The notes under the pieces are model-generated. The model was not told the origin of the DNA. It saw nothing but the letters and a program-made list of their open reading frames with translations, and made no database searches. The position numbers and the translations under genes are program-made. Below are positions 7,047-25,794 of a stretch of DNA of 32,000 nt, in pieces. Source of the stretch: Pseudochrobactrum asaccharolyticum (lineage in GTDB: Bacteria > Pseudomonadota > Alphaproteobacteria > Rhizobiales > Rhizobiaceae); contig NZ_QNRH01000014.1 of NCBI RefSeq assembly GCF_003314995.1, forward strand, positions 4,056 to 36,055, given 5' to 3'. Numbering within the stretch: position 1 is the stretch's first letter; each line of letters opens with the position of its first letter.

Positions 7047-7089
7047 AATATCATCAAAATTAGTAATGCATGAGAATGAGGCAATCCCA

Positions 7090-7896: not shown

Positions 7897-7947
7897 AACC
7901 AATAATAATAAAGGAGCAGCCTGAGAGCTGCTCCAGAGGGAGCGTCA

Positions 7948-9189: not shown

Positions 9190-9198
9190 ATACAAACC

Positions 9199-9238
9199 TG
9201 AACGTTGCCCTAAGACTTTGAATGTGTGGCAACGTTCA
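9199..9238. terminator. Candidate bidirectional hairpin between the convergent benE-like and ubiD-like genes
   Basis: A perfect 11-bp inverted repeat, TGAACGTTGCC (9199-9209) and GGCAACGTTCA (9228-9238), with an 18-nt loop. A T-rich run follows only on the minus-strand reading. The loop is large for an intrinsic terminator. Confidence 0.35.
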
Positions 9239-9292
9239 ACTTTATCCCCGTTATTTGACAAGTTTATTATATTTAGATCTCACGCTGAGCTT

Positions 9293-10681
9293 TCAGAGAA
9301 TTGCTGATAGTTCAGCGTGGGGGGCGATGACTGTATCAAGGTCTATTTCCATTTCACCGGGCACACGAATTTTGGTGAATTTAAATTCAGGCGCGCCGAA
9401 CGGAACTGTTGCATCCAGTCCCATTTTGGATCCAAAGCCATCGTCGGTTGATGGATCGAGTTTTGAACCTTGTGCTCCACCAATGATGATGACGTCCCGG
9501 TCAGCTTGAAAGCGTGTGGCTATTGCCCATGCGACACTGCGTTCGTCATAAATATCCACATCCTCATCAACGACGACCACATGTTTAATATCATAATGAG
9601 CAGCAAAAGCAGCAGCTATGATATTTTTGGCTTCGCCGCGGTTGCGCTTTTGGAGTTGCACGACAAGATGGTATCGGCCTACACCGCCAAGTGTCAGATG
9701 GACGGCTTTGACATTGGAAAAACTAGCCTGAATGGTGCTGAGTATCGTCGCTTCACGTGGCAGGGCACCCAGAAGTAAATGCTCTAGGGCACCACCAACG
9801 ATGGTGTGAAACAATGGGTTCTCTCGATGCGTAATACGATCGACGGCGATCACATGGCGCTCAGCGCGTTCGCCGTAGTATTGTGGAAATTCGCCGAATG
9901 GACCCTCTGGCGCTCGTTTTTGAGCCAAAAGGCGACCTTCTATGACGATTTCCGCATCGGCTGGGACGCGGATCTCGGAGCCGATGCATTTGGTCACCGC
10001 CAGAGGCGTTCCGTTGAGTGCGCCAGCGACCTCCAGCTCATCGTGATCAATAGGTAAGATTGCTTGTGATGCCATCAGGCAAGACGGGCTGCAGCCCACA
10101 ACAATTGCCACATCCAGATCAGCTCCGGTGGATTCAGCCTCGTTGAAAAAGGCAAGCGTATGTCGTGGGAGAAGTAGAACGCCAAGTTCGCGCGGACCTG
10201 AGACTTGCAACCGGTGAATGGCAACATTCTGGATACCCGTGCGAGGGTTACGGGCAATTAGCAGGCCAGCAGTAATATAGGAGCCGCTGTCAAATTCGTT
10301 ATGTACCGGAATTGGTAGCCGACCGAGTAAATCGCCGTCCTCAACAATAATTTGCTGGCAAGCTGCGTTATCAACTTGGTGCCACGGCAGGGGGCTTGCC
10401 GCAGCACGCTGGAACGCTTTCACAAGTTCGCTGGATTTAACGCCGAGGGCTTCTGCCATCCATGACCGATCCGACAAAAGGCCGGAAATGACTGTTATCC
10501 CTGTTCCACCGGCATCAGGGAATGCTGTGGCTTTGGTGCCATCCATACGGTTTGCAATGCCAGCGATCGTATGTTTGAGTTCGGTTCCAGGCTGGATAAT
10601 GCAGAGCCGGTCACTGTCATGCAGGGTTTTTAGCCAGTCACGCAATTCAGGAGCTCGGCGTGCCATCGAAGAATCGGTCAT
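9293..10681 (-). CDS. UbiD-family (prFMN-dependent) reversible decarboxylase, HmfF-like (462 aa)
   Basis: The length and overall sequence pattern fit the UbiD family. It is paired with a UbiX gene 1.1 kb away. This matches the hmfF/hmfG (2,5-furandicarboxylate decarboxylase) context beside furoyl-CoA pathway genes. Confidence 0.85.
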   Translation of the reverse strand: MTDSSMARRAPELRDWLKTLHDSDRLCIIQPGTELKHTIAGIANRMDGTKATAFPDAGGTGITVISGLLSDRSWMAEALGVKSSELVKAFQRAAASPLPWHQVDNAACQQIIVEDGDLLGRLPIPVHNEFDSGSYITAGLLIARNPRTGIQNVAIHRLQVSGPRELGVLLLPRHTLAFFNEAESTGADLDVAIVVGCSPSCLMASQAILPIDHDELEVAGALNGTPLAVTKCIGSEIRVPADAEIVIEGRLLAQKRAPEGPFGEFPQYYGERAERHVIAVDRITHRENPLFHTIVGGALEHLLLGALPREATILSTIQASFSNVKAVHLTLGGVGRYHLVVQLQKRNRGEAKNIIAAAFAAHYDIKHVVVVDEDVDIYDERSVAWAIATRFQADRDVIIIGGAQGSKLDPSTDDGFGSKMGLDATVPFGAPEFKFTKIRVPGEMEIDLDTVIAPHAELSAIL

Positions 10682-10696
10682 GTTTTTTCCTCTTTC

Positions 10697-10732
10697 TACG
10701 TGGCGAAAGTTTACGTTGTAAGGACGTATAAT
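10697..10732. promoter_or_regulatory. Candidate LysR-type operator and -10 element in the divergent ubiD-like / lysR intergenic region
   Basis: Dyad TACGT-N7-ACGTA (10712-10728), an extra TACGT at 10697-10701, and a TATAAT hexamer at 10727-10732, all within the 104-bp divergent spacer. Confidence 0.3.
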
Positions 10733-10785
10733 CCCTACTAATTTAAGATGATGTTCGTAATAGCGTTTCGTGATGGGGGTGGTTT

Positions 10786-11700
10786 ATGGAGTTGCGTCAA
10801 TTAAATTATTTCATTGCAGCCTATGAGGAGGGGTCTATTACCCGCGCGGCTCAGCGTTTGAATATTGTGCAGCCTGCGATCAGCCAGCAGCTTGCAAAGC
10901 TGGAGGCCGAATTAGGCGGTGCACTGTTTCAGCGTACACCCACGGGGTTACGACCGACTTTTTTGGGAGATGATGCTTATCGATTGTTAAGGCCACTGGT
11001 GCATCAACTGCAATCAGCGCGTCATGACCTTTCAGCTGATCGATCTCGGATAGGCGGTGCGCTGGCGATCGGGGCTATTGCATCCATGGCAATGGAAATT
11101 CTTCCCGAGACCCTGATCGCTTTGGGGGCACAATATCCTGATGTTACTTTCAGGGTAACAGGCGGTTATTCAGCTGAAATGCTGGAGATGCTGCGCATTG
11201 GAAAAATTGATATTGCGATTATCAATCATACAGATAACCGGCGTACTGACTTTGTTGAAATTGAGTTGTTTAATGAGAGGCTGGCTTTCATCTGCGCGCC
11301 AGATCATCCAGTCGCCATGCAGAACGGTCGTATCCGCGCTTCTGATGTTAAGCGCCTTGTTTTGCCAACAACGCGCCATGGTTTGCGCGATGTCATTTCA
11401 ATAGCAGCACGTGCAGCCGCGTTAAATCTGGATCCGCAATTGGAATGCGATGAAATTGCGACCCTTGAAAAATTCGTAGAACATGGCGGCTATGTTACTA
11501 TTCTGCCGCCGATCGCTCTTTTGAGTGCCCTGACTGAGGGGCGACTTATTGCATTACCAATCGCCCCGGGTGTGCGTCGGCGCGTTGTTTGTGCTTACAG
11601 CAATAGCCGGCCGCTCAGCCGTGCCGCGGAAGTATTTATCAGAGGGTTGCGTCAGCGGCTGAATGATGTGCCGAAGGATCTCATCAGCGTGCATCCATAG
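10786..11700 (+). CDS. LysR-family transcriptional regulator (304 aa)
   Basis: N-terminal LysR HTH: MELRQLNYFIAAYEEGSITRAAQRLNIVQPAISQQLAKLEAELGGALFQR. It is divergent from the UbiD gene and upstream of UbiX. Confidence 0.92.
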   Translation: MELRQLNYFIAAYEEGSITRAAQRLNIVQPAISQQLAKLEAELGGALFQRTPTGLRPTFLGDDAYRLLRPLVHQLQSARHDLSADRSRIGGALAIGAIASMAMEILPETLIALGAQYPDVTFRVTGGYSAEMLEMLRIGKIDIAIINHTDNRRTDFVEIELFNERLAFICAPDHPVAMQNGRIRASDVKRLVLPTTRHGLRDVISIAARAAALNLDPQLECDEIATLEKFVEHGGYVTILPPIALLSALTEGRLIALPIAPGVRRRVVCAYSNSRPLSRAAEVFIRGLRQRLNDVPKDLISVHP

Positions 11701-11794
11701 TGAATCATTATGGCTTGCGTTGAGATTACTTAATGGCATCTGATTGATTTTTGTGGTGCTCTCCAATGAGACAAAAAGCTTAAGTGAGTTATCA

Positions 11795-12397
11795 ATGGTG
11801 GGTGCGCAAACGAATAGATTGATTGTAGGTATCTCGGGAGCCTCAGGTGCTATCTATGGCATAAGATTATTAGAGTTACTGCGTGAGAGCCCTATCGAAA
11901 CGCATCTGGTGATTTCTCGTGCTGCCGAAATAACGATTGCACTTGAGACGGGAAGAAAGCTTGCTGATGTTCGGGCATTGGCCGACCGCTACTATCGTTT
12001 TGAAGATGTCGCTGCTTCAATTTCTTCCGGCTCGTTTCTCACTATGGGGATGATTGTTGCACCATGCTCTGTACGCAGTCTCTCAGAGATTGCTACCGGA
12101 ACAACGTCATCGCTACTGACGAGAGCTGCGGATGTTGTGCTGAAGGAGCGTCGCAAACTCGTGCTTATGTTGCGTGAGACCCCACTTCATCTTGGCCATT
12201 TACGCAGTATGACCGCTGTGACTGAGATGGGGGCGATAATATCTCCGCCGGTGCCTGCATTTTATGCCAAGCCGCAAAGTCTCACTGAAATGGTGGATCA
12301 TAGTCTTGGACGCGTGTTGGATATGTTTGGGGTGGAGACAAACACTGTCCGGCGCTGGAGAGACAACCAGCCTCAAATCGCATCGCTCTCATGTTGA
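11795..12397 (+). CDS. UbiX-family flavin prenyltransferase, HmfG-like (200 aa from ATG 11795)
   Basis: RLIVGISGASGAIYGIRLLELL...ETHLVISRAA...MIVAPCSVRSLSEIATG...RRKLVLMLRETPL is the canonical UbiX/Pad1 pattern. The ORF is open from 11744, but the conserved domain starts just after M at 11795. Confidence 0.9.
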   Translation: MVGAQTNRLIVGISGASGAIYGIRLLELLRESPIETHLVISRAAEITIALETGRKLADVRALADRYYRFEDVAASISSGSFLTMGMIVAPCSVRSLSEIATGTTSSLLTRAADVVLKERRKLVLMLRETPLHLGHLRSMTAVTEMGAIISPPVPAFYAKPQSLTEMVDHSLGRVLDMFGVETNTVRRWRDNQPQIASLSC

Positions 12398-12609
12398 TTG
12401 CTCAAGCTGCGGAATTGTCATTTGAAATAAGAGTGAAGCCTTCATCATCAGGCTGGAATTGTAGGTGGTTCCTATTGAAATGATAGGGGCAAATCGGCTG
12501 TTTATCGGAGTAAGTTTTAGAAGAATAAGAGACATTCTGTAATTGCGGGAGGCAAAACAGAGTGAGGCGTATTCGCTTTAAGTCTTGTTGCTCGGGAGGG
12601 AGAAAATTT

Positions 12610-13605
12610 ATGAATAGAATGACACGCAGAACCATGCTCTGTGGAGGCGGTATCGCGGCTGCAGGTGCACTCACGGGTCTTTCATTGCCCGCTTTTGCTC
12701 AACAAAGCGAGGTGCGCTGGGCAGAGCTGAAGCCAGGTTTCACTGTTTTACTGACCGGCTTCATCAAGCATCATCGCTTGGATAAAAAGCACGGATTTTC
12801 ACTTTCTACAGCGACGGAATATACGTCCGTACCCACTTATTATAGTGATTTTGATGTCGGTAATTACGATATCTGTATTGGCAGCTGGGACACCTTTGCA
12901 ACGCGCTACGTTCGCGGCGTACCGTTGACATATATATGTAACGTGACCACCGCCAATATGATCAATTTCATATCACTTAAAGAGACCGGTGTGGATGATG
13001 TGTCGGTGCTGGCCGGAAAAGTTGTGGCTGCTCCTCAGTCAACCGGAACCTATCAGATGGCAAAAGCTGTTCTGGCTGAATTTAAAAAGATTGATCTTGA
13101 AGGCAGCTCGACAATCCAGAATGTGAATAATCCTGCAGCGTCGGTGTCTGTGTTGCGGGCGGGTAGTGCCAACGCCGGACTAACCTGGGAACCGAACGTT
13201 ACGAATGGAATGGCCGAAGATGGTCGTATTCAGAGTATCTTTAGTATTGGTGATGCCTACACCAAGGGTACAAACGGCAAAACTCTTCCCTATTTCGGCG
13301 TCGCGGTTCGCAATGAATTGCTAGCAACCGATCCACAGATCGGGGTCAAAATTGATGCGATGTTCCGTGACTGTATCGAGGGTATTCTGAGTGACGTGCC
13401 AAGTGCAGTGACTGTTGTCGGAGAAGCAACAGGCTTCCGGCCTGAAGTTCTGACTGAAGCGATCGCGTCGGGACGACTGGATTTCAAATATACTTCAATG
13501 ACCGATGCTGCTGCACGAGAAAATCTCAAAGCTGCTGCTGAATTCTGTGTTCGCAACGGTGCGCTTGCGGGTGTTCCGGATGACAACTTCTTCTTCCAGG
13601 GTTGA
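12610..13605 (+). CDS. ABC transporter periplasmic substrate-binding protein (NMT1/NitT-TauT-like) with a Tat-type signal peptide (331 aa)
   Basis: MNRMTRRTMLCGGGIAAAGALTGLSLPAFA|QQ carries a twin-arginine motif and an AxA cleavage site. GGGAGGGA lies upstream of ATG 12610. A cognate permease and ATPase follow. Confidence 0.8.
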   Translation: MNRMTRRTMLCGGGIAAAGALTGLSLPAFAQQSEVRWAELKPGFTVLLTGFIKHHRLDKKHGFSLSTATEYTSVPTYYSDFDVGNYDICIGSWDTFATRYVRGVPLTYICNVTTANMINFISLKETGVDDVSVLAGKVVAAPQSTGTYQMAKAVLAEFKKIDLEGSSTIQNVNNPAASVSVLRAGSANAGLTWEPNVTNGMAEDGRIQSIFSIGDAYTKGTNGKTLPYFGVAVRNELLATDPQIGVKIDAMFRDCIEGILSDVPSAVTVVGEATGFRPEVLTEAIASGRLDFKYTSMTDAAARENLKAAAEFCVRNGALAGVPDDNFFFQG

Positions 13606-13674
13606 AGCTAATGTCATGTGAAATGGCATGTGCCGTTTTCTTAAGTACATGCTTACCAGTTCCCGGAGGAAATC

Positions 13675-14496
13675 GTGTCTCAAGCCCAAGTGCACCCGAG
13701 CCAGAATGAGCTCGAGGGTAATCCATTGCCTGTCGAGCGCAAGCTGACGCAAAGCAGCGTAATTCCTATCCTTGTCGTTGTGGCCGCGTTGACAGTTGCA
13801 ATCCAGATTGCCAGTTTTTACGTCCCCCCTTATGTAATGCCATCACCGGCCGTTATTCTTGCCGCTGTCAGCGAAATTCTAACCACCCAATATCATCATA
13901 TTGGTGTCACCGCTTTGCGCCTTCTTGTGGCGCTGCTTTTCGCGATGATGCTGGGGGTTCTCCTTGGTGTGATCATGGGGATCTTTCCGAAAATCCGCCC
14001 GTATTTGCACTCGCTGATCATTATCGACACTGGGATACCTGCACTGTCCTGGATGCTTTTGGCGATTTTTTGGTTTTCGCAACCAGAAGTCCGGATTTTC
14101 TTCATCTTGTCGGTTATTCTGGTGCCATTTTATGCATTGAGTATCTATGACGGCATTCGCGCTCTGTCGAACGACCTTGTCGATATGATCGAAAGCTTTC
14201 GTCCCAATCGCTGGCAGGTGCTGCGTTATCTGATCCTTCCGCATATTGTTCCCTATATCCTGTCCACCACGAAATCCGTGATCGGGTACGCGATCCGTAT
14301 GGCGATTTTTGCTGAACTGGTTGCTTCTGCGATGGGGATTGGCTCGCGGATGAGTCTTGCACAATCGATGTTCCGTATTGACCAGGTTCTTGGTTGGACT
14401 GTGATCCTCGTGGTGGCGAACATATCGCTGCAAGCACTGCTCAACAGAACAGATAAGGTTCTTCTAAAGTGGCGTCCGGAGGCTTCAGTAAGATGA
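13675..14496 (+). CDS. ABC transporter permease (NitT/TauT family type, 273 aa, GTG start)
   Basis: Multi-TM protein with a binding-protein-dependent permease core. GGAGGA lies 4 nt upstream of GTG 13675. Confidence 0.85.
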   Translation: MSQAQVHPSQNELEGNPLPVERKLTQSSVIPILVVVAALTVAIQIASFYVPPYVMPSPAVILAAVSEILTTQYHHIGVTALRLLVALLFAMMLGVLLGVIMGIFPKIRPYLHSLIIIDTGIPALSWMLLAIFWFSQPEVRIFFILSVILVPFYALSIYDGIRALSNDLVDMIESFRPNRWQVLRYLILPHIVPYILSTTKSVIGYAIRMAIFAELVASAMGIGSRMSLAQSMFRIDQVLGWTVILVVANISLQALLNRTDKVLLKWRPEASVR

Positions 14497-15245
14497 GCAA
14501 CCAATCCATTATCAGCCTTGAAAAAGTAGGGAAATCCTATGGATCTTATCAGGTTCTCAGCAATATCTCGATGAAGGTCAACCAAGGGGAAATCGTTGCG
14601 CTCCTTGGTCAGACGGGAGCTGGAAAAAGCACTGTTATGAATATGGTCATGGGCACACAACCGACCAGCGCAGGAACAGTGCGCGTTGCGGGATATGACC
14701 CTTTTCGTGATTTTGCGAAACTACGTGGAAAAATGGCCGTCAGTTTCCAGACCGACCGGCTCTTACCTTGGCGAACAGCTGTTGAGAACTGTGAGTTAGG
14801 CCTGCTTATCTTGAAAGTCCCGCCCGCAGAAGCCCGCAAACGTGCACTGACATGGTTGTCGCGCGTCAAACTGGAAGGGGCCGCAGATAAGCACCCGCAC
14901 GAACTCTCAGGCGGTATGCGCCAACGTGTTTCTCTCGCACGGGCTTTGTGTGTCGACCCTCAGCTTGTGTTGTTGGATGAGAGCTTCAGTCAGCTCGACC
15001 ACGTTACCTCAAAAGAGCTGCGTCAGGATTTCGCACGTGTTGTGCGGGAGTACAACAAGACCTGTCTTTTCGTAACCCATCGTATTGATGATGCAATCGA
15101 AATGGCCGATCGCGTGATCGTGCTACGCCCAAATGTTGGCGTTGCGCTTGAAGAAAACATCAGTGCCGAAGTCTGTAAAACCCCAGAACTTGCTCAGGCA
15201 TTACATGATCGGATCGCCGCCTGTATGGCGGGGGAAACTCAATAA
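14493..15245 (+). CDS. ABC transporter ATP-binding protein (250 aa)
   Basis: Walker A GQTGAGKST, signature LSGGMRQRVSLARAL, Walker B LVLLDESFSQLD. ATG 14493 overlaps the permease stop (ATGA). Confidence 0.9.
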   Translation: MSNQSIISLEKVGKSYGSYQVLSNISMKVNQGEIVALLGQTGAGKSTVMNMVMGTQPTSAGTVRVAGYDPFRDFAKLRGKMAVSFQTDRLLPWRTAVENCELGLLILKVPPAEARKRALTWLSRVKLEGAADKHPHELSGGMRQRVSLARALCVDPQLVLLDESFSQLDHVTSKELRQDFARVVREYNKTCLFVTHRIDDAIEMADRVIVLRPNVGVALEENISAEVCKTPELAQALHDRIAACMAGETQ

Positions 15246-15288: not shown

Positions 15289-16083
15289 ATGAGTTATCAG
15301 GATATTATCGTTGAGCGGCAGGAAAACTGGATCGAAATCCAGATTAATCGACCTGAAAAGTTGAACTCACTACGTGAAACGACCGCGTCCGAAATTATGG
15401 AGGCAATGGCTGCGGCAGAACATGATCGCGATATACGAGCCGTTATTCTCAAAGGGACCGAAAAAGCCTTTTGCACAGGTATCGATACGTCGGAATTTAC
15501 AATTGGTGACAACGAGTATTTCGATTTTTATCGAATGCGTCGGCGTAGCCGGAAAGTCAATCGCCTGTTCAGAGAGATGCCAGAATATACCAAGCCGGTG
15601 ATCACTGTGATTGAAGGCTTCGCTTTGGGTGGCGGTCTGGAGCTGGCGCTTGTCGGTGACATTATTATCGCAGGTGAAAAAGCCAAGCTTGGGCTTCCTG
15701 AAATCCGCCTTGGCCTGATGCCCGGCGGTGGCGGTACTCAGACACTACCGCGTTTGATCGGTAAATCATTGGCCAAGGAACTTATGTGGACAGGTCGCCG
15801 CCTGTCGGCACAGGAAGCCAAGGAAATCCGCCTTCTCAATCACGTAACCGCCGCAGGCGAAGCCTTAGATAAGGCGCGTGAGATTGCACGCACGATTGCG
15901 GGTAATGCTCCGTTGTCGGTCATGCTCACCAAAGGGGTGATTGATCGCGGGATTGATATGTCACTTGCTGATGGTTTTGCAGCCGAGGGTGATGCGTCCT
16001 TCATGCTCTATTTTACGGGTGACCGTCAGGAAGGGCTGTCTGCTTTCCGTGAAAAGCGTGAACCTCAGTTCAAGGGAGAGTGA
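15289..16083 (+). CDS. Enoyl-CoA hydratase (crotonase family, 264 aa)
   Basis: Both catalytic Glu positions appear present (GFALGGGLELALVGD and LGLPEIRLGLMPGGGGTQ). C-terminal QEGLSAFREKREPQFKG. GGGAG lies 7 nt upstream of ATG 15289. Confidence 0.88.
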   Translation: MSYQDIIVERQENWIEIQINRPEKLNSLRETTASEIMEAMAAAEHDRDIRAVILKGTEKAFCTGIDTSEFTIGDNEYFDFYRMRRRSRKVNRLFREMPEYTKPVITVIEGFALGGGLELALVGDIIIAGEKAKLGLPEIRLGLMPGGGGTQTLPRLIGKSLAKELMWTGRRLSAQEAKEIRLLNHVTAAGEALDKAREIARTIAGNAPLSVMLTKGVIDRGIDMSLADGFAAEGDASFMLYFTGDRQEGLSAFREKREPQFKGE

Positions 16084-16089
16084 TTAATT

Positions 16090-17256
16090 ATGTCAAAATC
16101 AGATATCGTCATCGCGGCCTATTCGGAAACGCCTGTGCAATTCAAGTCTGGCCGCAGTGCTTATGATCTTGCAGGAGAAGCTTTCGCCCAGTTGCTTGAG
16201 CGTTCCGGCATTGCCAAGTCTGAAATTGATGGATTGTCCGTGACTGTTCCATTGAGTGAATGCAGCAATCCGTTTTTCGCGGTTTACATGAGCGAAGCAC
16301 TGGGGATCTCACCAACCTGGATGAATTATGGTGGTACCGGCGGCTGCTCTGCCACCGGTGGTGTTGCCCGCGCAATGTCTGCAATCCGTGACGGTCATTG
16401 TGAAGTTGCAATGGTTATGTCGGCGGATGCTCCTTCAACACGGTGGGCAGCCAATTACGGGGCTTATCGTGGCGAGTTTCAAGATCCGCAAGGCGTGCAG
16501 GGGCCACCGGCTGTATTCGGCCTTTTGATGAGCCGCTATGCTTATCAATATGACCTTAAACCTGAAGCTTTGGCAAAGATTGCAATCACGCAGCGCAATC
16601 ATGCATTGCTGAATGAAAATGGACTTGAAAAGTTTCGTAAACCTCTGAGCGAAGAGGATTATTTCGCTTCGAAAGTTATTGCTGACCCGTTGCGCGTGCT
16701 GGATTCGGTGATGTTCTGTGATGGTGCCAACGCCTTTCTTGTTATGAAACGTGAGAAGGCTGATGCGCTTGGGATCAAAACGTATGTCTATCCGACCGCC
16801 TATGCGGAACTGACCAATGTCAACGGATCGGATCCGCTGGCGGATGTAACCGAAACCGGATTTTCAAAAATCGCACCAAAAATCTGGCAGCAATCCGGGT
16901 TAAAACCGTCGGACATCTCGATGTTTCAACCCTATGACGATTTTACCATCGCCGTATTGATGAAGTTCGAGGATTTCGGGTTCTGTGGCCGGGGTGAAGG
17001 CAGTGATTTTGTCCTGTCTACTGATCTTAGCTTCAAGGGCTCTTTGCCGCTCAATACTGGTGGCGGACAGATTTCAGCGGGCCAACCCGGATTGGCAAGT
17101 GGTGGATTGAACCTTGCCGAGGCTGTTCGGCAACTTATGGGCGAGGGCGGTGAGCGTCAGGTCGCCAATCCTAAAAATGCACTTGTCACAGGTATTGGTG
17201 TTATCCCGTTCGCTCGTAACTGGGGTACCAGTGCTGCTATGATTTTGGAGGTCTGA
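16090..17256 (+). CDS. Thiolase-like (SCP-x / Ltp-type) protein, probably not a canonical thiolase (388 aa)
   Basis: It has thiolase-fold signatures (GGTGGCSATGGVARAMSAIRDG; LNTGGGQISAGQPGLASG). The His of the conserved GHP motif is Gln, and the C-terminal HN.G/C.G region is absent. A DUF35 gene follows 1 nt later. Confidence 0.8.
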   Translation: MSKSDIVIAAYSETPVQFKSGRSAYDLAGEAFAQLLERSGIAKSEIDGLSVTVPLSECSNPFFAVYMSEALGISPTWMNYGGTGGCSATGGVARAMSAIRDGHCEVAMVMSADAPSTRWAANYGAYRGEFQDPQGVQGPPAVFGLLMSRYAYQYDLKPEALAKIAITQRNHALLNENGLEKFRKPLSEEDYFASKVIADPLRVLDSVMFCDGANAFLVMKREKADALGIKTYVYPTAYAELTNVNGSDPLADVTETGFSKIAPKIWQQSGLKPSDISMFQPYDDFTIAVLMKFEDFGFCGRGEGSDFVLSTDLSFKGSLPLNTGGGQISAGQPGLASGGLNLAEAVRQLMGEGGERQVANPKNALVTGIGVIPFARNWGTSAAMILEV

Positions 17257-17257
17257 T

Positions 17258-17674
17258 ATGTCCGAACTCGCTAATTTACGTCCAATCCCAAAACCGAATA
17301 CCTTTGTTAATACCGATGCTTTTTGGGACGGAGCGCGCCGTAAGGAACTGTGGCTGCAATATTGCCTCGATACCGGCAAGTTCCAGCACTATCCGCGTCC
17401 AGTATCGATCTACACGGGTTCCCGAAACCTGGAATGGCGTCAAGTGTCCGGAAAGGGCGTTGTCTATGCCGCCACGGTCATCCGTATTCCCGGCGTCGGC
17501 CTTGAAGGCCGTACACCACTTAATACCTGCACCATCGATCTTGATGAGGGGGCGCGGCTTTTGGGCAATATCACCAATGCTGAGCCCGGTGCAGTTGCTA
17601 TTGGTGCGCGGGTAGAGCTGGATTGGGAAAAGCTCGCCGATGACATCTATTATCCGGCCTTTCGGTTGGTATAA
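17258..17674 (+). CDS. DUF35/OB-fold protein (thiolase-like partner subunit) with a degenerate Zn ribbon (138 aa)
   Basis: FWDGARRKELWLQYCLDTGKFQHYPRPVSIYTGSRNLEWRQVSGKGVVYAATVI matches the DUF35 pattern. Three of the four ribbon cysteines are replaced by Thr, Ser and Thr. Confidence 0.8.
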   Translation: MSELANLRPIPKPNTFVNTDAFWDGARRKELWLQYCLDTGKFQHYPRPVSIYTGSRNLEWRQVSGKGVVYAATVIRIPGVGLEGRTPLNTCTIDLDEGARLLGNITNAEPGAVAIGARVELDWEKLADDIYYPAFRLV

Positions 17675-17689: not shown

Positions 17690-19249
17690 GTGCGTCTTGA
17701 AAATATTTTGTTCTCCCATTCTCTGAGCCAACCAGAGAAAACTGCACTTATCTGCGGAGAAAATCGGCTCAACTGGGGTGATTTGGGTAACCGGGTCCGT
17801 TCTGTTGCGCGGGGCTTGGCGGCGCGCGGCATTGGCAGTGGTGACAAGGTTATTCTCTATATGTCAAACCAGATCGAGTTCGCCGAAGCGTTTTTCGGCG
17901 TTCTCGCAACTGGAGCGGTGGTGGTTCCTGCCACAACACGTATCAGTCCCCATGAACTTGCCTATTTTCAAGCAGATAGTGGCGCAGGATTGATCATTTG
18001 TGATGCAAATCTTGCAGAAAAAGTCGCCGCTGAAGTTTCTGTGGGTGCAGAAATTTACACTGTAGGAGAGACAATCTCAGACTTTGCTGATTTTTCATGT
18101 TTGCGCCAATCTGGCACTACCCCCTTGCCACCAATTCCGCTTGAACAGGACGAAGCGGCTATTCTCTACACCTCAGGTACAACCGGTCAGCCTAAGGGTG
18201 TGGTGTTAACCCATGCGAATATCCTCGTCTGTCATGGCTATATGAATGCTGTTGAATGGGGGATTAACGGCGACGATATCTATCTCGTTGTTTCCCCCAT
18301 GGCACATCGTGCCGGAATGGGGCGGATGATCAATGCACTGATGCTTGGTGGTACGCTGAATATCCTTAGCCGCTTTGATCCGGACGATGTGCTCTCCATC
18401 ATTGAAAGGGAACAGGTGACTGTACTGGGTCTCGTTCCAACAATGTGCCGGATGATGATGCCGGTTCTGGAGGCAGATCCGCAACGCGCTGCCTCATTAC
18501 GCCGACTGGCTGTGACGGGGGAAGCTTTTCCGGTGCCGTTGAAAGAACGGCTGATTGCCTTGCTGCCAAATCTCGAAATCGTTTCTTTCTTTGGCATGAC
18601 CGAAGCAGGTGGTGTGACGGGGCTGATGCATCGTGAACAATTCACACATGCCGGCTCGGTGGGACGACCTTGCCCCGGAGTGGAAGTCAGGATCACAGAC
18701 GAGGATGGCCGTGACGTTATGGATGGTGAGGCGGGAGAGCTTTTAGTTCGCGCCGGACGTCCCGGGGCTTTCACGGTGATGAAGGGATATCTGAATAACC
18801 CTGAGCAGACTGAAGCTGCATTTAGCGATGGATGGTTCCGTACCGGCGATATGGCACGCCGCGATGCTGATGGGTATCTCTATATTGTTGATCGTAAGAA
18901 AGACATGATCGTATCAGGCGGGCTCAATATCTATTCGAAAGAAGTCGAACAGACGATCACCGAACTGCCCGGTATCGCTGATGTCGCGGTCATCGCTGTC
19001 CCTGATGATGTTTTTGGTGAGAGTGTTGTGGCGGTGATTGAACCTGAAAAGGGGGCAGTTGCCCCGGATAAAAATCAGATCGTCGAACATTGCCGGCAGC
19101 GCATTGCCGGTTACAAGAAGCCCAAATATGTCCTTTACCGAAGCGAACTGCCACGCAACGCTACGGGCAAAATTCTTAAGCGTGACCTTCTGCCATGGGC
19201 GGTTGCGGAAATCACTGCGACAACGGATCAGGCGAAGGTGGCATCATGA
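17690..19249 (+). CDS. AMP-dependent acyl-CoA synthetase (519 aa, GTG start)
   Basis: ILYTSGTTGQPKGVVLTH, WFRTGDMARRDADGYLYIVDRKKDMI and GKILKRDL. GGAGAG lies upstream of GTG 17690. Confidence 0.9.
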   Translation: MRLENILFSHSLSQPEKTALICGENRLNWGDLGNRVRSVARGLAARGIGSGDKVILYMSNQIEFAEAFFGVLATGAVVVPATTRISPHELAYFQADSGAGLIICDANLAEKVAAEVSVGAEIYTVGETISDFADFSCLRQSGTTPLPPIPLEQDEAAILYTSGTTGQPKGVVLTHANILVCHGYMNAVEWGINGDDIYLVVSPMAHRAGMGRMINALMLGGTLNILSRFDPDDVLSIIEREQVTVLGLVPTMCRMMMPVLEADPQRAASLRRLAVTGEAFPVPLKERLIALLPNLEIVSFFGMTEAGGVTGLMHREQFTHAGSVGRPCPGVEVRITDEDGRDVMDGEAGELLVRAGRPGAFTVMKGYLNNPEQTEAAFSDGWFRTGDMARRDADGYLYIVDRKKDMIVSGGLNIYSKEVEQTITELPGIADVAVIAVPDDVFGESVVAVIEPEKGAVAPDKNQIVEHCRQRIAGYKKPKYVLYRSELPRNATGKILKRDLLPWAVAEITATTDQAKVAS

Positions 19250-20397
19250 TCCGGCCAGAAACAGCAGTAGAAGCGGAGTTCCGTGCGGAGCTTCGCGGGT
19301 GGCTGGCAAAAGAGGTGCCGGCACATCTTGCCCACACGACGTTCAGGCCTGAACCTGCTGAAGCGACAGCATGGCATCGCAAATTGGCGCAAATGGGTTG
19401 GATCGCTCCGCATTGGCCTAAGGAATATGGCGGGATGGGAGCAAGTCCTGTTGAGCAGGTCATTCTCATGGAAGAACTTGCCCGTGCAGGTGCGCCGGAT
19501 TTGCCGACACAGGGACTGAACCATATTGGTCCTCTCCTGATGAAATCAGGAACCCATGCGCAGAAAGAGCAGCATCTGCCGAGGATTCTTTCGGGCGATA
19601 CGGTATGGTGTCAGGGCTATTCCGAACCTGAAGCCGGCTCGGATCTGGCCAGCTTGCAGACCAAGGCAAGGATTGAGGGATCGGAGCTGGTCATAGACGG
19701 ACACAAAATCTGGACAACATGGGGACATCACGCGGACTGGATGTTTGCCTTGGTTCGGACTTCGCCGGAGCGACGCGATGGGATTACTTTCGTGCTCTTT
19801 CCGATGAACACACCGGGTATCACTGTTAAACCAATCAAAACCATCGCAGGTGATGAAGAGTTTGCTGAGGTTTTTTTTGATGCTGTACGGGTGCCTATAG
19901 AAAATGTTGTCGGTTCAATTGGTGGTGGCTGGAAAGTTGCGACTTCGCTTCTTGATGAGGAGCGGATGCATCTGGGCACACCGGCGCTTACTAATCGGGC
20001 CCTGGTCCGGTTACAGCGATTAGTACAGAATATGCCTGCGGTATCGCGCGATGAATGGCAAATTCGCCTTGAACAAGCGCGGGCAAAGGTTGAAGTCGTG
20101 ACAGCCGCATTCCTCGATACGGCTGAGCGTTTTGAGACCGGTGTGGCGGTCGTCAACGAGTCAAGTTATCTCAAAATTCTGAACACAGAGACTGTGCAGG
20201 GGATATTAGAATTGGTGTTTGAGGCTGCCGGAGCACTTGGCGCGCGACAGGGCTCGTTAATCGAAAGTGGTATGCGGATCGATCTGAATGAAATGTATCT
20301 GCAGTCGCGCCGTTTAACTATCTATGGCGGTTCCAATGAGATTCAGAGATCTATTTTAGCCAACCGTGTGCTGGGTTTGAACGGAGGGCGCACCTGA
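19246..20397 (+). CDS. Acyl-CoA dehydrogenase, probable catalytic alpha subunit of a heteromeric pair (383 aa)
   Basis: ACAD motifs WCQGYSEPEAGSDLASLQTKA, DGHKIWTTW and C-terminal IYGGSNEIQRSILANRVLGL. ATG 19246 overlaps the ligase stop (ATGA). The ORF is open from 19195, but that stretch overlaps the ligase coding region. Confidence 0.88.
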   Translation: MIRPETAVEAEFRAELRGWLAKEVPAHLAHTTFRPEPAEATAWHRKLAQMGWIAPHWPKEYGGMGASPVEQVILMEELARAGAPDLPTQGLNHIGPLLMKSGTHAQKEQHLPRILSGDTVWCQGYSEPEAGSDLASLQTKARIEGSELVIDGHKIWTTWGHHADWMFALVRTSPERRDGITFVLFPMNTPGITVKPIKTIAGDEEFAEVFFDAVRVPIENVVGSIGGGWKVATSLLDEERMHLGTPALTNRALVRLQRLVQNMPAVSRDEWQIRLEQARAKVEVVTAAFLDTAERFETGVAVVNESSYLKILNTETVQGILELVFEAAGALGARQGSLIESGMRIDLNEMYLQSRRLTIYGGSNEIQRSILANRVLGLNGGRT

Positions 20398-21395
20398 TGC
20401 CGGTATGGTCACAAGAGGATCGTCTGATTGCTGATAGCGCGGATGCGTTGTTTGCAGATACCGGCGGCCTGACCGGCCTGCGGTTGGGGAATGGGCGGAC
20501 ATTGGCACGCATTCGTGCTGAGGGCTGGGCGGGTGTCCTGCTCGATGAAGAACAAGGGGGGCTGGGTTTCGGACTGCGTGGCGCAGCGATTGTTATGCAG
20601 TCGGCAGGCCGTAATCTATCACCAGAACCACTCGCTGCTATGATAGCAGTCGCATGGCTGCTTGGCACGATAGGTGAAGGCACACTTGTGTCTGAGTTGA
20701 TGTCAGGGCAGCAGATAATTTTGTCAGCGCACGCTCAATGGGATGGTGAACGCTATGTCACGGGGGCGATACCGGGAATAGCCGTTGCCGATCATCTGGT
20801 TGTATTCTGCTCTGATGACCAATCACTGCGCCTGATCAATTGTAAAAATGCCAAAGATCCTGAGGTTGACATTGATATATTTTCAACTGTTGATTTTGGA
20901 AGTTCGGGCGCGGCGTCCTTTGCAAAGGGTGCGGGAACGATTTTGTGCGTTGGTAAGATAGCAACGGAACTGGCTGAGAAAATTGAAGATCTGGTTCGGC
21001 TGTTCCATGCTGCTGAACTGGTTGGCATCGCAGCACAGGCGCTAACAATCGTGTCAGACTATGTCAAAATACGGCAGCAATTCGGTGTCTCCTTATCCAG
21101 CCATCAGGTTATCCAGCACCGTCTTGCATCAGTGCATGTACAAATTGCAGCTGCAGAGGCGATTGTCTATGAGGCAGTGCGTGCGGTTGATGGGGAGCAA
21201 CGCCGGTTTGGGGTAAAGACTGCCTATCAGCAAGCCCGTCACGCTGCAGAGTTGTCAACCCGCGAAGCTATCCAATTTCATGGTGGAATTGGTTTTACCG
21301 ATGAATGCGATATCGGGCTGTTTTTCAAACGCGTGATGGGGATTGCTGCAGCTCAAAATGGATGCTTGCCGGTGATTGAGGAGCGAGTAGCATGA
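20397..21395 (+). CDS. Acyl-CoA dehydrogenase-like protein, shorter beta-type subunit (332 aa)
   Basis: ACAD-like N-terminus (AEGWAGVLLDEEQGGLGFG) and IQFHGGIGFTDECDIGLFFKRV. The protein ends before the C-terminal catalytic-base region. It is joined to the upstream ACAD by a TGATG overlap. Confidence 0.8.
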   Translation: MPVWSQEDRLIADSADALFADTGGLTGLRLGNGRTLARIRAEGWAGVLLDEEQGGLGFGLRGAAIVMQSAGRNLSPEPLAAMIAVAWLLGTIGEGTLVSELMSGQQIILSAHAQWDGERYVTGAIPGIAVADHLVVFCSDDQSLRLINCKNAKDPEVDIDIFSTVDFGSSGAASFAKGAGTILCVGKIATELAEKIEDLVRLFHAAELVGIAAQALTIVSDYVKIRQQFGVSLSSHQVIQHRLASVHVQIAAAEAIVYEAVRAVDGEQRRFGVKTAYQQARHAAELSTREAIQFHGGIGFTDECDIGLFFKRVMGIAAAQNGCLPVIEERVA

Positions 21396-22837
21396 CTTTA
21401 ATGACTGAAAAATATGGCCCTTTAACACTCTTTATCGATGGCGAATGGATCTCCGTCTCGGATAGTGGCGAAGATGTGTATAATCCTGCAACCGGGGAGG
21501 TCATTGCCAGATTACCTCATGCGAGTGCTTCCGATATCGACCGCGCAGCACAGGCCGCTGCCCGTAGTTTTCCGGCATGGCGCGCTCTGACTGCACTTGA
21601 GCGCAGTCGCATTTTGCGACGTACTGCCGATCTCTTACGTGAGCGTGCTGATCATATCGCCTGGCTGCTTAGTACCGAGCAGGGGAAAGCTCTGGGGGAG
21701 GCGCGGATAGAAGTTATGGTTTCGGCCGAAACACTGGATTGGTGTGCAGAAGAGGGGCGCCGTATCTACGGGCGGATCGTTCCCAGCCCGTATCCACAGG
21801 TGGAATATCGTGTGCTCAAGCAACCGGTCGGGCCTGTTGCTGCTTTTACCCCGTGGAATTTTCCGTTGATGATGCCTGCACGCAAAGTGGCCTCAGCGCT
21901 TGCATCCGGTTGCACGATCGTTCTTAAACCTGCGGAAGAAACCCCCGCTGCGGCAATTGAACTTGCGCGTGCTTTTCATGATGCGGGGCTACCTGACGGT
22001 GTCTTGAACATCGTTTTTGGTAATCCTGCCGAAGTATCGGAACAACTCATTGCTCATGAGGCTATCCGGAAAGTTACATTTACTGGTTCCACCGCTGTCG
22101 GTCAGCATCTTGCTGGTCTGGCCGCGCGCCACGGAGCCAAGCGCTGTACTATGGAGCTTGGCGGTCATGCGCCGGTACTGATCCTTGAGGATGCAGATCT
22201 TGAGCGGGCAATTTCGTTATTGGCACCGTTCAAATTCCGCAATGCCGGACAGGTTTGTATTTCACCAACACGATTTTACGTACATGACAGTCTGCATGAT
22301 CGTTTTGTTGATGGCATGGTTTGTGCCGCTACTAAACTGAAGATCGGATCAGGTGTTGAAGAGGGCGTGCAGATGGGCCCGCTGGCCAATCCGCGCCGGG
22401 TTTCAGCCATGCGTGAACTGGTCGATGATGCAATTGCGCAGGGCGCGCGCTGTATGACCGGCGGTAATCTTGTTGGTAATCGGGGCAATTTTTTTGCGCC
22501 TACTGTATTGGCCGATGTGCCTGAAAGCGCCCGTATTATGAATGAGGAGCCTTTTGGCCCCATCGTCGTCACCGCCCGTATCCATAATACGCAAGAAGCA
22601 ATTACACAGGCAAACCGGCTTCCGTTTGGATTGGCCTCTTATGCCTTTACCAGTTCGGCGCATAATATCAGTATGCTGGCTGATGGGGTTGAAGCGGGCA
22701 TGCTTGGCGTGAACGCAATCGCAGTATCAACACCGGAAGCACCATTTGGTGGTGTGCGCCACAGTGGTTATGGGAGCGAGGGTGGCATTGAGGGCATGGA
22801 GCCTTATTTGGTTACCAAACTGCTTGCACAAGGATGA
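21392..22837 (+). CDS. NAD(P)+-dependent aldehyde dehydrogenase (481 aa; GabD / semialdehyde-dehydrogenase-like)
   Basis: YNPATGEVIA, catalytic-Glu motif MELGGHAP, catalytic-Cys motif FRNAGQVCISPTRFYV, and EEPFGPI. ATGA overlap with the upstream gene. Confidence 0.92.
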   Translation: MTLMTEKYGPLTLFIDGEWISVSDSGEDVYNPATGEVIARLPHASASDIDRAAQAAARSFPAWRALTALERSRILRRTADLLRERADHIAWLLSTEQGKALGEARIEVMVSAETLDWCAEEGRRIYGRIVPSPYPQVEYRVLKQPVGPVAAFTPWNFPLMMPARKVASALASGCTIVLKPAEETPAAAIELARAFHDAGLPDGVLNIVFGNPAEVSEQLIAHEAIRKVTFTGSTAVGQHLAGLAARHGAKRCTMELGGHAPVLILEDADLERAISLLAPFKFRNAGQVCISPTRFYVHDSLHDRFVDGMVCAATKLKIGSGVEEGVQMGPLANPRRVSAMRELVDDAIAQGARCMTGGNLVGNRGNFFAPTVLADVPESARIMNEEPFGPIVVTARIHNTQEAITQANRLPFGLASYAFTSSAHNISMLADGVEAGMLGVNAIAVSTPEAPFGGVRHSGYGSEGGIEGMEPYLVTKLLAQG

Positions 22838-25793: not shown

Positions 25794-25794
25794 G

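What the first reader, a model, noticed from the sequence alone, without database searches (positions are those of the whole stretch)
16090..17674. Thiolase-like protein with GHP->GQP substitution, paired with a DUF35 protein that has lost 3 of 4 Zn-ribbon cysteines
Seen:
- The thiolase signature-2 region reads LNTGGGQISAGQPGLASG (nt 17053-17103). Gln332 stands where thiolases carry the catalytic His of N..GG....GHP.G..G.
- I could not find a C-terminal Cys/His motif. The N-terminal Cys position (GGCSATG) is kept.
- In the partner protein, the canonical DUF35 ribbon C-x2-C...C-x2-C reads C-L-D-T ... S-I-Y-T (nt 17363-17416).

Inference:
- The pair is unlikely to be a Claisen thiolase. It fits an aldolase/lyase or a scaffold role.
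- The DUF35 subunit probably no longer binds zinc.
Basis: partly seen in the sequence, partly recalled or inferred. Interest (0 to 1): 0.66.

Follow-up and report, generated by a model that had tools for sequence, protein, structure and literature searches.

The report
Zinc-free DUF35 partnered thiolase-fold aldolase
This gene pair most likely encodes a thiolase-shaped enzyme that clips two carbons off an acid side chain as acetyl-CoA by an aldol-type cleavage; it is an uncharacterised, widespread cousin of the recently solved bile-acid aldolase Sal, with an aspartate in place of Sal's essential cysteine and a partner protein that has lost its zinc site.

Summary
The two ORFs are real, translationally coupled genes, and most of the reported residues are correct: Gln332 sits at the thiolase GHP histidine, and the DUF35 ribbon reads C..T/S..T. 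One point is wrong. Cys86 lies one residue after the thiolase nucleophile position, which is Gly85. The closest solved structure is the Comamonas Sal–Shy(DUF35) retro-aldolase (9MYR). It also has Gly at the nucleophile position and Gln at the GHP site, so GQP is a known aldolase-type feature. Three things are new. Sal's essential Cys304 is Asp284 here (YDDF, invariant in 120 homologues). The stand-alone DUF35 lacks three zinc ligands in 80/80 orthologous loci and 121/121 database homologues, while the ribbon stays highly conserved. The pair also sits in a conserved non-steroid operon: ABC transporter, crotonase, aldolase, DUF35, CoA ligase, with two-subunit acyl-CoA dehydrogenase and aldehyde dehydrogenase in some loci. 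No 3-hydroxyacyl-CoA dehydrogenase is present in the window. The operon often lies beside furan (hmf) catabolic genes. Best reading: a CoA-dependent retro-aldol module that shortens a side chain. The substrate is unknown; a furan-alkanoate is a guess. New variant of a known kind; moderate interest.

The parts
16090..17256 (+). Thiolase-fold, Sal-like putative retro-aldolase (388 aa). Key residues: Gly85 (nucleophile position, nt 16342-16344), Cys86 (nt 16345-16347), Tyr282-Asp-Asp284-Phe (nt 16933-16944), Asn322-Thr-Gly-Gly-Gly-Gln327 (nt 17053-17070), Gly331-Gln332-Pro333 (nt 17080-17088).
   Evidence: Pfam Thiolase_C_1 E=1e-35. PDB 9MYR_A E=3e-48. AF2 model pLDDT 90.8; Foldseek 9myr_A TM 0.87. 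Motif mapping. Motifs invariant in 120/120 homologues.
17258..17674 (+). Stand-alone DUF35 (ribbon + OB fold, 138 aa). Its zinc-ligand positions read C36/T39/S50/T53 (nt 17363-17374 and 17405-17416). The start codon lies 1 nt after the aldolase stop codon.
   Evidence: Pfam OB_ChsH2_C E=7e-18 and zf-ChsH2 E=2e-6. 9myr_B E=9e-14, 6ok1_B E=2e-11. AF2 pLDDT 91, with the ribbon blocks at 93-97; Foldseek 9myr_B TM 0.83, rmsd 1.9 Å. Pattern C-[TAS]-S-[TS] in 80/80 loci and 121/121 homologues.
15289..16083 (+). Crotonase-type enoyl-CoA hydratase (ECH2). It presumably makes the 3-hydroxyacyl-CoA substrate. The likely true start is Met53 of the listed ORF 15133-16083.
   Evidence: Pfam ECH_1 E=1e-59. 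Orthologue (>=60% id) directly upstream of the aldolase in 61/80 loci.
17690..19249 (+). AMP-forming acyl-CoA synthetase (lig2). It activates the acid substrate.
   Evidence: Pfam AMP-binding E=4e-85. Present in 63/80 loci. Where absent, a family found in 8 loci encodes an ADP-forming acyl-CoA synthetase, seen in loci without lig2 such as L055.
19246..20397 (+). Acyl-CoA dehydrogenase large subunit (PimC-like). Its start overlaps the lig2 stop.
   Evidence: Pfam Acyl-CoA_dh N/M/C domains. NCBIfam pimC_large E=8e-77, below cut-off. Present in 41/80 loci.
20397..21395 (+). Acyl-CoA dehydrogenase small subunit, with only the C-terminal domain recognisable (IpdE2/PimD-like).
   Evidence: Present in 37/80 loci.
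21392..22837 (+). NAD(P)-dependent aldehyde dehydrogenase. It would oxidise the aldehyde released by the aldolase.
   Evidence: Pfam Aldedh E=2e-157. 557 bits to A. brasilense alpha-ketoglutaric semialdehyde dehydrogenase 5X5T. Close orthologue in only 6/80 loci; some ALDH in 28/80.
12562..15245 (+). ABC importer of the NitT/TauT type: NMT1-like binding protein 12562-13605, permease 13675-14496, ATPase 14469-15245. Start codons were not refined.
   Evidence: Pfam NMT1 E=5e-7 for the binding protein. The permease and ATPase roles are assigned from their translations, not from a domain scan. Conserved upstream of ECH2 in 59-67/80 loci.
1261..12397 (.). Neighbouring context. It comprises hmfABC-like molybdenum dehydrogenase (1261-5554), hmfD-like CoA ligase (5547-7046), hmfE-like crotonase (7018-7896), BenE transporter (7948-9189), UbiD decarboxylase (9293-10681, minus strand), LysR regulator (10786-11700) and UbiX (11744-12397). 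This is a furoate / 2,5-furandicarboxylate catabolic set.
   Evidence: Pfam. The gene set matches the published hmfABCDE and hmfFG description (PMC3223595, PMC8091172). hmf-like or UbiD/X genes lie within 10 kb of the pair in 32/80 loci.

Best explanation
The pair encodes a thiolase-fold retro-aldolase with its DUF35 partner. By analogy with CtSal–ShyDUF35 it probably forms an alpha-beta-beta-alpha heterotetramer.

Proposed pathway:
1. A carboxylic acid is imported by the ABC transporter.
2. The CoA ligase activates it.
3. If the chain is saturated, the two-subunit acyl-CoA dehydrogenase desaturates it.
4. The crotonase hydrates it to a 3-hydroxyacyl-CoA.
5. The aldolase cleaves the C-alpha–C-beta bond, giving acetyl-CoA and an aldehyde.
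6. The aldehyde dehydrogenase oxidises the aldehyde to the acid that is two carbons shorter.

Proposed chemistry (inferred):
- Tyr282 (CtSal Tyr302) deprotonates the beta-hydroxyl.
- Asp284 stands where CtSal has its essential Cys304 and is proposed to protonate the acetyl-CoA enolate.
- Gln327 and Gln332 (CtSal Gln347 and Gln352) hydrogen-bond this acid.
- No covalent acyl-enzyme forms, because the nucleophile position is Gly85.

The DUF35 subunit keeps the ribbon + OB fold without zinc and probably shapes the substrate cleft.

What is shown: homology, residue mapping, conservation and gene context. What is inferred: the activity, the role of Asp284, the absence of metal and the oligomeric state.

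The substrate is unknown. Repeated linkage to hmf genes suggests furan-2-propanoate or -acrylate type acids that yield furfural or 5-formylfuroate. Confidence in that sub-claim is about 0.3.
For: - Closest solved relatives by sequence and fold are the two characterised thiolase-fold aldolases: CtSal 9MYR and TcLtp2 6OK1. The DUF35 matches their DUF35 partners best.
- Residue mapping: Gly85 = CtSal Gly89 = thiolase Cys; Tyr282 = Tyr302; Gln327/Gln332 = Gln347/Gln352. Roles of the CtSal residues come from PMC12329534.
- G85, YDDF, NTGGGQ and GQP are invariant in 120/120 homologues at 73-100% identity.
- Asp284 co-occurs with Gln332 in 24 of 26 Asp-bearing representatives. 104 of 114 neighbouring representatives have Gly at the nucleophile position.
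- The window operon contains a ligase, a two-subunit ACAD, a crotonase and an ALDH, but no 3-hydroxyacyl-CoA dehydrogenase. An SDR family was found in only 6 of 80 loci.
- This gene logic matches the CoA ligase / dehydrogenase / hydratase / aldolase / aldehyde dehydrogenase route of bile-acid side-chain cleavage (established knowledge; PMC12329534).
- Synteny holds across Alpha-, Beta- and Gammaproteobacteria and a few other phyla. In loci without lig2, an ADP-forming acyl-CoA synthetase takes its place.
- Paralogues on catabolic plasmids sit in the same kind of context. On pJP4: tfdA – acyl-CoA synthetase – THL – DUF35. On a Sphingobium baderi plasmid: ACAD – crotonase – THL – DUF35 – CoA transferase.
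Against: - No biochemical data exist for any member of this clade. Literature searches found none.
- CtSal Cys304 could not be replaced by Ala, Ser or His. An Asp at this position is therefore untested as a general acid.
- CtSal's proposed oxyanion-hole residue Gln161 aligns with Pro139, in a loop modelled with low confidence.
- Cys86 is invariant in the orthologue group and is unexplained.
- A close orthologue of the window's ALDH occurs in only 6/80 loci, and the ACAD in about half.
- The hmf linkage covers 32/80 loci and gives no direct evidence about the substrate.
Confidence: 0.68

Rival explanations
1. It is a genuine, divergent thiolase. Cys86 acts as the acyl-accepting nucleophile after a local register shift, and Asp284 acts as the base. 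It would perform normal thiolysis of a 3-ketoacyl-CoA.
For: Cys86 is invariant in the orthologue group, in the 50% sister P0121 and in the pJP4 paralogue. Public annotation calls these proteins 'thiolase' or 'acetyl-CoA acetyltransferase'.
Against: - Cys86 aligns one residue after the nucleophile in every alignment. No indel separates it from CtSal, or from a true SCP2 thiolase, in the helix that follows.
- The GHP histidine and the second catalytic cysteine are both absent.
- The 46% paralogue with the same YDDF/GQP motifs has Ser at position 86.
- No 3-hydroxyacyl-CoA dehydrogenase is present to make a 3-keto substrate.
- Scores against all NCBIfam thiolase models fall far below their cut-offs.
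Confidence: 0.07
2. The pair catalyses other chemistry on the thiolase fold. Candidates are CoA-ester decarboxylation (as weakly seen for TbSLP), thioester hydrolysis, or a PhlABC-like C-acyl transfer on an aromatic or furan ring.
For: DUF35-partnered thiolase-fold proteins perform varied reactions: PhlC and MucABC acyl transfer, BbsAB thiolysis, and the archaeal thiolase/HMG-CoA synthase complex. All give TM scores of 0.8-0.88 to the model. Asp284 has no characterised precedent.
Against: - PhlC-type enzymes need a Cys at the nucleophile position and a KAS III-like partner. Both are absent.
- Sequence and profile similarity is highest to Sal.
- The adjacent crotonase, ACAD and ALDH fit a hydration / retro-aldol / aldehyde oxidation sequence.
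Confidence: 0.15
3. The thiolase-like protein is a catalytically dead scaffold, and the DUF35 ribbon is simply decaying.
For: Canonical thiolase residues and three zinc ligands are missing.
Against: - 126 of 388 positions are invariant across 120 homologues, including every Sal-equivalent active-site residue.
- The ribbon segment is among the most conserved parts of the DUF35: Q34, C36, Q43, P46-R47-P48, S50 and G54 are invariant, and H44, R56 and N57 nearly so.
- It is modelled with pLDDT 93-97.
- This pattern indicates purifying selection, not decay.
Confidence: 0.05

Closest known systems
CtSal–CtShy(DUF35), bile-acid C5 side-chain retro-aldolase of Comamonas testosteroni (PDB 9MYR; PMC12329534)
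   Same: Thiolase fold. Gly at the nucleophile position. The catalytic Tyr of the YDxx motif. Both Gln residues, including Gln at the GHP histidine position. Obligate DUF35 partner. Operon logic of ligase / ACAD / hydratase / aldolase / ALDH. Best hit by sequence, by family profile and by fold.
   Different: - The essential Cys304 is Asp284 (YDDF versus YDCY).
- NTHGGQ is NTGGGQ here.
- The DUF35 is a separate 138-aa protein, not the C-terminal domain of a MaoC hydratase.
- The hydratase is a crotonase.
- The Cys3His1 zinc site is replaced by C/T/S/T, with Lys at the CtShy His36 position.
- The genomic context is furan catabolism, not steroid catabolism.
- Identity is only about 28-35%.
TcLtp2–ChsH2(DUF35), steroid C3 side-chain aldolase (PDB 6OK1)
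   Same: Thiolase fold without a nucleophilic Cys. Tyr of the YDxF motif. DUF35 partner. Retro-aldol release of an acyl-CoA.
   Different: Ltp2 uses YDHF plus Tyr344 at the position of query Gln332. Its DUF35 has a canonical Cys4 zinc ribbon and is fused to ChsH2.
SCP2-type thiolases and SCP2-thiolase-like proteins (e.g. 6HSJ, 3ZBG, TbSLP 5AB4)
   Same: Same fold and subfamily (Pfam Thiolase_C_1). Conserved N-x-x-G-G loop and the F-C-x-x-G-x-G motif.
   Different: The thiolases have Cys / HDCF / GHP, and the query has Gly85 / YDDF / GQP. SLPs have YDCF and no DUF35 partner.
Canonical DUF35 proteins (PF12172 + PF01796; SSO2064 3IRB, BbsA, PhlB, archaeal thiolase/HMGCS DUF35)
   Same: N-terminal helix, ribbon and OB-fold architecture. 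Pairing with a thiolase-fold enzyme.
   Different: According to the Sal paper, the DUF35 homologues it compared coordinate zinc with four Cys, and Shy with Cys3His1. Here only the first Cys remains, and a sister clade has none.

Membership tests
Claisen thiolase (EC 2.3.1.9 / 2.3.1.16, including SCP2 thiolase) | Nucleophilic Cys at the N-terminus of helix N-alpha-3 (CxS motif) | tested here: not met
   That column holds Gly85. Cys86 is at +1. The database thiolase P0250 places its Cys on the Gly85 column.
Claisen thiolase (EC 2.3.1.9 / 2.3.1.16, including SCP2 thiolase) | Catalytic His of the GHP motif | tested here: not met
   Gln332, invariant in 120/120 homologues.
Claisen thiolase (EC 2.3.1.9 / 2.3.1.16, including SCP2 thiolase) | Acid/base Cys (CxG, or the Cys of HDCF in SCP2 thiolases) | tested here: not met
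   The motif is YDDF (Asp284). There is no C-terminal CxG.
Sal-type thiolase-fold steroid aldolase | Gly at the nucleophile position, catalytic Tyr302, and Gln347/Gln352 | tested here: met
   Gly85, Tyr282, Gln327 and Gln332. Their roles are taken from PMC12329534.
Sal-type thiolase-fold steroid aldolase | Essential catalytic Cys304 in YDCY | tested here: not met
   Asp284. In CtSal, C304A, C304S and C304H are inactive.
Sal-type thiolase-fold steroid aldolase | Partner DUF35 fused to the MaoC hydratase Shy, with a Cys3His1 zinc finger | tested here: not met
   Stand-alone 138-aa DUF35 with C/T/S/T and Lys41 at the His36 position. The neighbouring hydratase is a crotonase.
Sal-type thiolase-fold steroid aldolase | Retro-aldol cleavage of a 3-hydroxyacyl-CoA to an aldehyde plus acetyl-CoA | not testable with these tools
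   Needs an enzyme assay. Only context supports it.
Ltp2-type aldolase | YDHF motif plus the catalytic acid Tyr344 | tested here: not met
   YDDF, and Gln332 at the Tyr344 position.
DUF35 (zf-ChsH2 + OB_ChsH2_C) | C-terminal OB fold paired with a thiolase-fold protein | tested here: met
   PF01796 E=7e-18. Foldseek 9myr_B TM 0.83. Adjacent to the THL gene in 80/80 loci.
DUF35 (zf-ChsH2 + OB_ChsH2_C) | Rubredoxin-like ribbon with four Cys ligands binding zinc | tested here: not met
   Only Cys36 remains. The pattern is C-[TAS]-S-[TS] in 80/80 loci and 121/121 homologues. The ribbon fold itself is predicted to be kept. Actual metal content cannot be tested here.

The most novel reading that the evidence does not exclude
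The pair represents an undescribed catalytic class of thiolase-fold retro-aldolase. It would use a Tyr/Asp dyad instead of Tyr/Cys or Tyr/Tyr, and it works with the first naturally metal-free DUF35. It forms a portable 'two-carbon side-chain clipping' cassette that feeds the pathway encoded next to it. In this window and many Proteobacteria, that would be furan-alkanoic or -acrylic acids into the hmf furoate / furandicarboxylate route. On pJP4-type plasmids, it would be phenoxybutyrates into TfdA.
Probability: 0.3. Interest if true: 0.7.

Novelty: new variant of a known kind. Interest (0 to 1): 0.55.

Why it matters
- Thiolase-fold aldolases are known only from steroid side-chain degradation. 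There they use Tyr/Tyr (Ltp2) or Tyr/Cys (Sal).
- A widespread non-steroid clade with Tyr/Asp would broaden both the chemistry and the biological range of this enzyme type. The clade gives more than 145 genome hits, plus members on classic catabolic plasmids.
- It would give a natural test of whether the DUF35 zinc site is needed for complex formation.
- It points to an unrecognised upper pathway feeding furan catabolism. That is relevant to detoxifying lignocellulose hydrolysates and to furandicarboxylate biotechnology.
- Current public names are misleading: 'acetyl-CoA acetyltransferase' and 'Zn-ribbon domain-containing OB-fold protein'.

Tried and rejected
- NCBIfam scans of the pair and of eight neighbouring proteins gave only sub-threshold generic hits and no equivalog.
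- The binding protein of the ABC transporter has no PDB or NCBIfam relative, so it gave no clue to the substrate.
- Literature searches found nothing on this module. Terms tried: furoyl-CoA + thiolase; DUF35 + aldolase; furoic + beta-oxidation enzymes; pJP4 + thiolase; furan-propanoic acids. The hmf survey PMC8091172 mentions only tauABC-like transporters near hmf genes.
- A greedy longest-ORF clustering of the 80 loci was contaminated by antisense shadow ORFs in high-GC genomes. I used it only to pick out extra families: a LysR regulator, an ADP-forming CoA synthetase and a rare SDR.
- A megablast of the operon against plasmids found nothing.
- I considered an alternative metal site formed by Cys36, Asp38 and His44. 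I rejected it as a clade-wide feature. His44 is Ala in the pJP4 paralogue and Phe in both the Sphingobium paralogue and the P0121 partner, and Cys36 is Asp in the P0121 partner.
- I considered ring-directed chemistry on 5-hydroxymethylfuroyl-CoA or furandicarboxyl-CoA. It yields no beta-hydroxy thioester, so I dropped it (reasoning only).
- The first protein database search timed out and was repeated.
They served only as guides. The conclusions rest on the database thiolase P0250 and on the PDB alignments.
Full report
**1. What is in the sequence**

ORF 16090-17256 (388 aa) and ORF 17258-17674 (138 aa) lie on the + strand, 1 nt apart. Pfam assigns Thiolase_C_1 (E=1e-35) to the first. It assigns OB_ChsH2_C (E=7e-18) plus zf-ChsH2 (E=2e-6) to the second.

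The reported strings are present:
- LNTGGGQISAGQPGLASG at residues 321-338 (nt 17050-17103), with Gln332.
- GGCSATG at residues 84-90.
- CLDT at residues 36-39 and SIYT at residues 50-53 of the DUF35 protein.

The thiolase-like protein has only two His (103 and 171). Neither is in the C-terminal half.

**2. Closest relatives**

The best solved relative of both proteins is the Comamonas testosteroni Sal–Shy(DUF35) bile-acid side-chain aldolase, 9MYR.
- Sequence: E=3e-48 for the large protein and 9e-14 for the DUF35.
- A profile of the family gives E=6e-132.
- The Ltp2–ChsH2(DUF35) aldolase 6OK1 also scores highly for both proteins.

AlphaFold2 models are confident, with pLDDT 90.8 and 91.1. Foldseek ranks 9myr_A (TM 0.87) and 6ok1 first for the large protein. 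It ranks 9myr_B (TM 0.83, rmsd 1.9 Å) first for the DUF35.

**3. Residue mapping**

The Sal paper (PMC12329534) reports the following:
- Tyr302 and Cys304 of the YDCY motif are the catalytic residues.
- Gln347 and Gln352 are proposed to hydrogen-bond Cys304.
- A Gly occupies the thiolase nucleophile position. Its Gly89 backbone amide contacts the substrate hydroxyl.

I aligned the query with 114 full-length representatives of the nearest 50%-identity clusters, six close homologues and reference sequences (126 sequences in all). CtSal residues map as follows:

| CtSal | Query | True SCP2 thiolase P0250 |
|---|---|---|
| Gly89 | Gly85 | Cys (nucleophile) |
| Ala90 | Cys86 | Ala |
| Tyr302 | Tyr282 | His |
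| Cys304 | Asp284 | Cys |
| Gln347 | Gln327 | Leu |
| Gln352 | Gln332 | His (GHP) |

Three conclusions follow:
This is the Sal state, not an anomaly.
- The 'retained' Cys is one residue past the nucleophile position.
- The real departure from Sal is Asp284 in place of the cysteine that CtSal cannot do without.

**4. How unusual these states are**

Among the 114 representatives:
- 104 have Gly at the nucleophile position, and one has Cys.
- Position 332 is His in 47, Gln in 40 and Tyr in 14.
- Position 284 is Cys in 35, Asp in 26, Ser in 21 and Ala in 21.
- Asp284 pairs with Gln332 in 24 of 26 cases.

The query therefore belongs to a sizeable uncharacterised YDD[YF]/GQ[PA] class beside the Sal-like YDC[YF]/GQx class. 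Within the 120 closest database homologues (73-100% identity), G85-C86-S87, YDDF, NTGGGQ and GQP are all invariant.

**5. The DUF35 partner**

The four zinc-ligand columns read C-[TAS]-S-[TS] in 80 of 80 orthologous genome loci and in 121 of 121 aligned database sequences (the query plus 120 homologues).

The ribbon segment is nonetheless one of the most conserved parts of the protein. Q34, C36, Q43, P46-R47-P48, S50 and G54 are invariant, and H44, R56 and N57 nearly so. It is modelled with pLDDT 93-97.

Partners of related thiolase-like proteins show where the loss occurred:
- The sister protein P0121 (50% identity) has a partner with none of the four Cys.
- Partners of more distant YDD[YF] proteins (32-39% identity in the MAFFT alignment) have canonical CxxC…CxxC ribbons.
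- Paralogues at 54% identity (pJP4) and 46% identity (Sphingobium baderi plasmid) also have zinc-less partners. They carry Ala or Phe at position 44, and the Sphingobium enzyme has Ser at position 86.

Zinc-ligand loss is therefore an old, fixed trait of one subclade. No replacement ligand set is conserved, and Cys86 is not a clade-wide requirement.

**6. Gene context**

The pair is embedded in a run of tightly spaced + strand genes, several with overlapping start and stop codons:
- NMT1-type ABC importer
- crotonase (ECH2)
- aldolase
- DUF35
- AMP-forming CoA ligase
- PimC-like and IpdE2/PimD-like acyl-CoA dehydrogenase subunits
- aldehyde dehydrogenase

No 3-hydroxyacyl-CoA dehydrogenase is present in the window.

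Upstream lies a set matching the published hmf furan pathway: an hmfABC-like molybdenum dehydrogenase, an hmfD-like ligase, an hmfE-like crotonase, a BenE transporter, UbiD, a LysR regulator and UbiX.

Across 80 loci from Alpha-, Beta- and Gammaproteobacteria and a few other phyla:

| Feature | Loci (of 80) |
|---|---|
| DUF35 directly downstream | 80 |
| ABC transporter components | 59-67 |
| ECH2 | 61 |
| CoA ligase (lig2) | 63 |
| ACAD large subunit | 41 |
| hmf-like or UbiD/UbiX genes within 10 kb | 32 |

The hmf-linked loci include Rhodopseudomonas palustris BisB18, a published furfural degrader. In loci without the ligase, such as L055, an ADP-forming acyl-CoA synthetase takes its place; that family occurs in 8 loci.

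On pJP4 the paralogous pair follows tfdA and an acyl-CoA synthetase. On the Sphingobium plasmid it sits between an ACAD–crotonase pair and a CoA transferase, inside an IS6100-flanked segment.

**7. Mechanism proposed**

The acid substrate passes through these steps: acid, acyl-CoA, enoyl-CoA, 3-hydroxyacyl-CoA. The last is cleaved by a retro-aldol reaction to acetyl-CoA plus an aldehyde, and the aldehyde is oxidised to the shortened acid.

Tyr282 is the proposed base and Asp284 the proposed acid, with Gln327 and Gln332 supporting. There is no acyl-enzyme intermediate. The metal-free DUF35 probably acts as a cleft-shaping subunit.

Homology, residue mapping, conservation and context are shown. 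Activity, the role of Asp284, the absence of metal and the oligomeric state are inferred.

The substrate is not established. Linkage to hmf genes, and to tfdA on pJP4, suggests a 'feeder' that trims aryl-, furyl- or aryloxy-alkanoic acids to the acid handled next door. Other weak hints point elsewhere:
- The PimC-like dehydrogenase and the window ALDH (557 bits to alpha-ketoglutaric semialdehyde dehydrogenase 5X5T) would also fit a carboxylated substrate.
- One of the ligase's PDB hits is a feruloyl-CoA synthetase.

**8. Rivals**

- A true thiolase using Cys86 is unlikely. The register is wrong, there is no His, there is no second Cys, nothing supplies a keto substrate, and a paralogue has Ser86.
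- A dead scaffold is unlikely, given the invariant active-site residues.
- Other thiolase-fold chemistry cannot be excluded without assays.

**9. Verdict**

The GQP substitution is already explained by the 2025 Sal structure. The remaining novelty is the Asp-for-Cys active site, the zinc-less stand-alone DUF35 and the non-steroid, furan-linked operon. This is a new variant of a known kind, of moderate interest.

Noticed in passing
window 1-24600 versus 24600-32000: G+C is 0.47-0.53 across the hmf genes plus the aldolase operon. It dips to 0.42-0.46 at 22.6-23.2 kb, then rises to 0.61-0.68 beyond about 24.6 kb. The catabolic region may be a horizontally acquired island, or this may be an assembly junction. 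No tRNA gene is found in the window.
   Followed up: partly
L086 (pJP4, NZ_AY365053.1 37821-40971): IncP-1 2,4-D plasmids carry a paralogous pair directly after tfdA and an acyl-CoA synthetase. These are pJP4, a Variovorax sp. DB1 plasmid, and others in Ralstonia, Paraburkholderia and Cupriavidus. The THL is 54% identical with the same GGC/YDDF/NTGGGQ/GQP motifs. The DUF35 is 40% identical and also zinc-less. A role in trimming phenoxybutyrates to 2,4-D is conceivable. No literature on these ORFs was found.
   Followed up: partly
L088 (Sphingobium baderi SC-1 plasmid NZ_CP128176.1, locus 5855-13455): An IS6100-flanked cassette carries ACAD – crotonase – THL (46% identity; YDDF/GQP but Ser at position 86) – zinc-less DUF35 – CaiB/BaiF CoA transferase – amidohydrolase. 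The DUF35 is annotated 'Zn-ribbon domain-containing' although it lacks three of the four Cys.
   Followed up: partly
window 1261-4230: The hmfA-like molybdopterin subunit (989 aa) carries a C-terminal CoxG/SRPBCC domain at residues 829-965, fused to the large subunit.
   Followed up: no
window 23204-23683 (minus strand): A 159-aa ORF matches only positions 2-122 of the 331-position SLAC1/TehA anion-channel profile. It may be a truncated gene remnant at the edge of the low-GC region.
   Followed up: no
loci such as L055 (3087-5219), where tblastn finds no lig2: In loci that lack the AMP-forming ligase, such as the Xanthobacter locus L055, an ADP-forming acyl-CoA synthetase is present (CoA_binding + Succ_CoA_lig + ATP-grasp). 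That ORF family occurs in 8 of the 80 loci. It looks like a non-homologous replacement that preserves the activation step.
   Followed up: partly
L071 (Lautropia MAG), about 8.0-9.5 kb downstream of the pair: A second, divergent DUF35 (39%) and THL (32%) pair occurs in the opposite gene order, near the orthologous pair.
   Followed up: no
L081 (context of the sister protein P0121): The 50%-identical sister pair has a DUF35 with no ribbon Cys at all. It sits among TctC binding proteins, hydantoinase A/B-like genes and a glyoxalase. It has no ligase, crotonase or ACAD, which suggests a different substrate supply.
   Followed up: no
window 24464-24955 (minus strand) and 28107-28562 (plus strand): Two ORFs of 163 and 151 aa have no Pfam match.
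   Followed up: no
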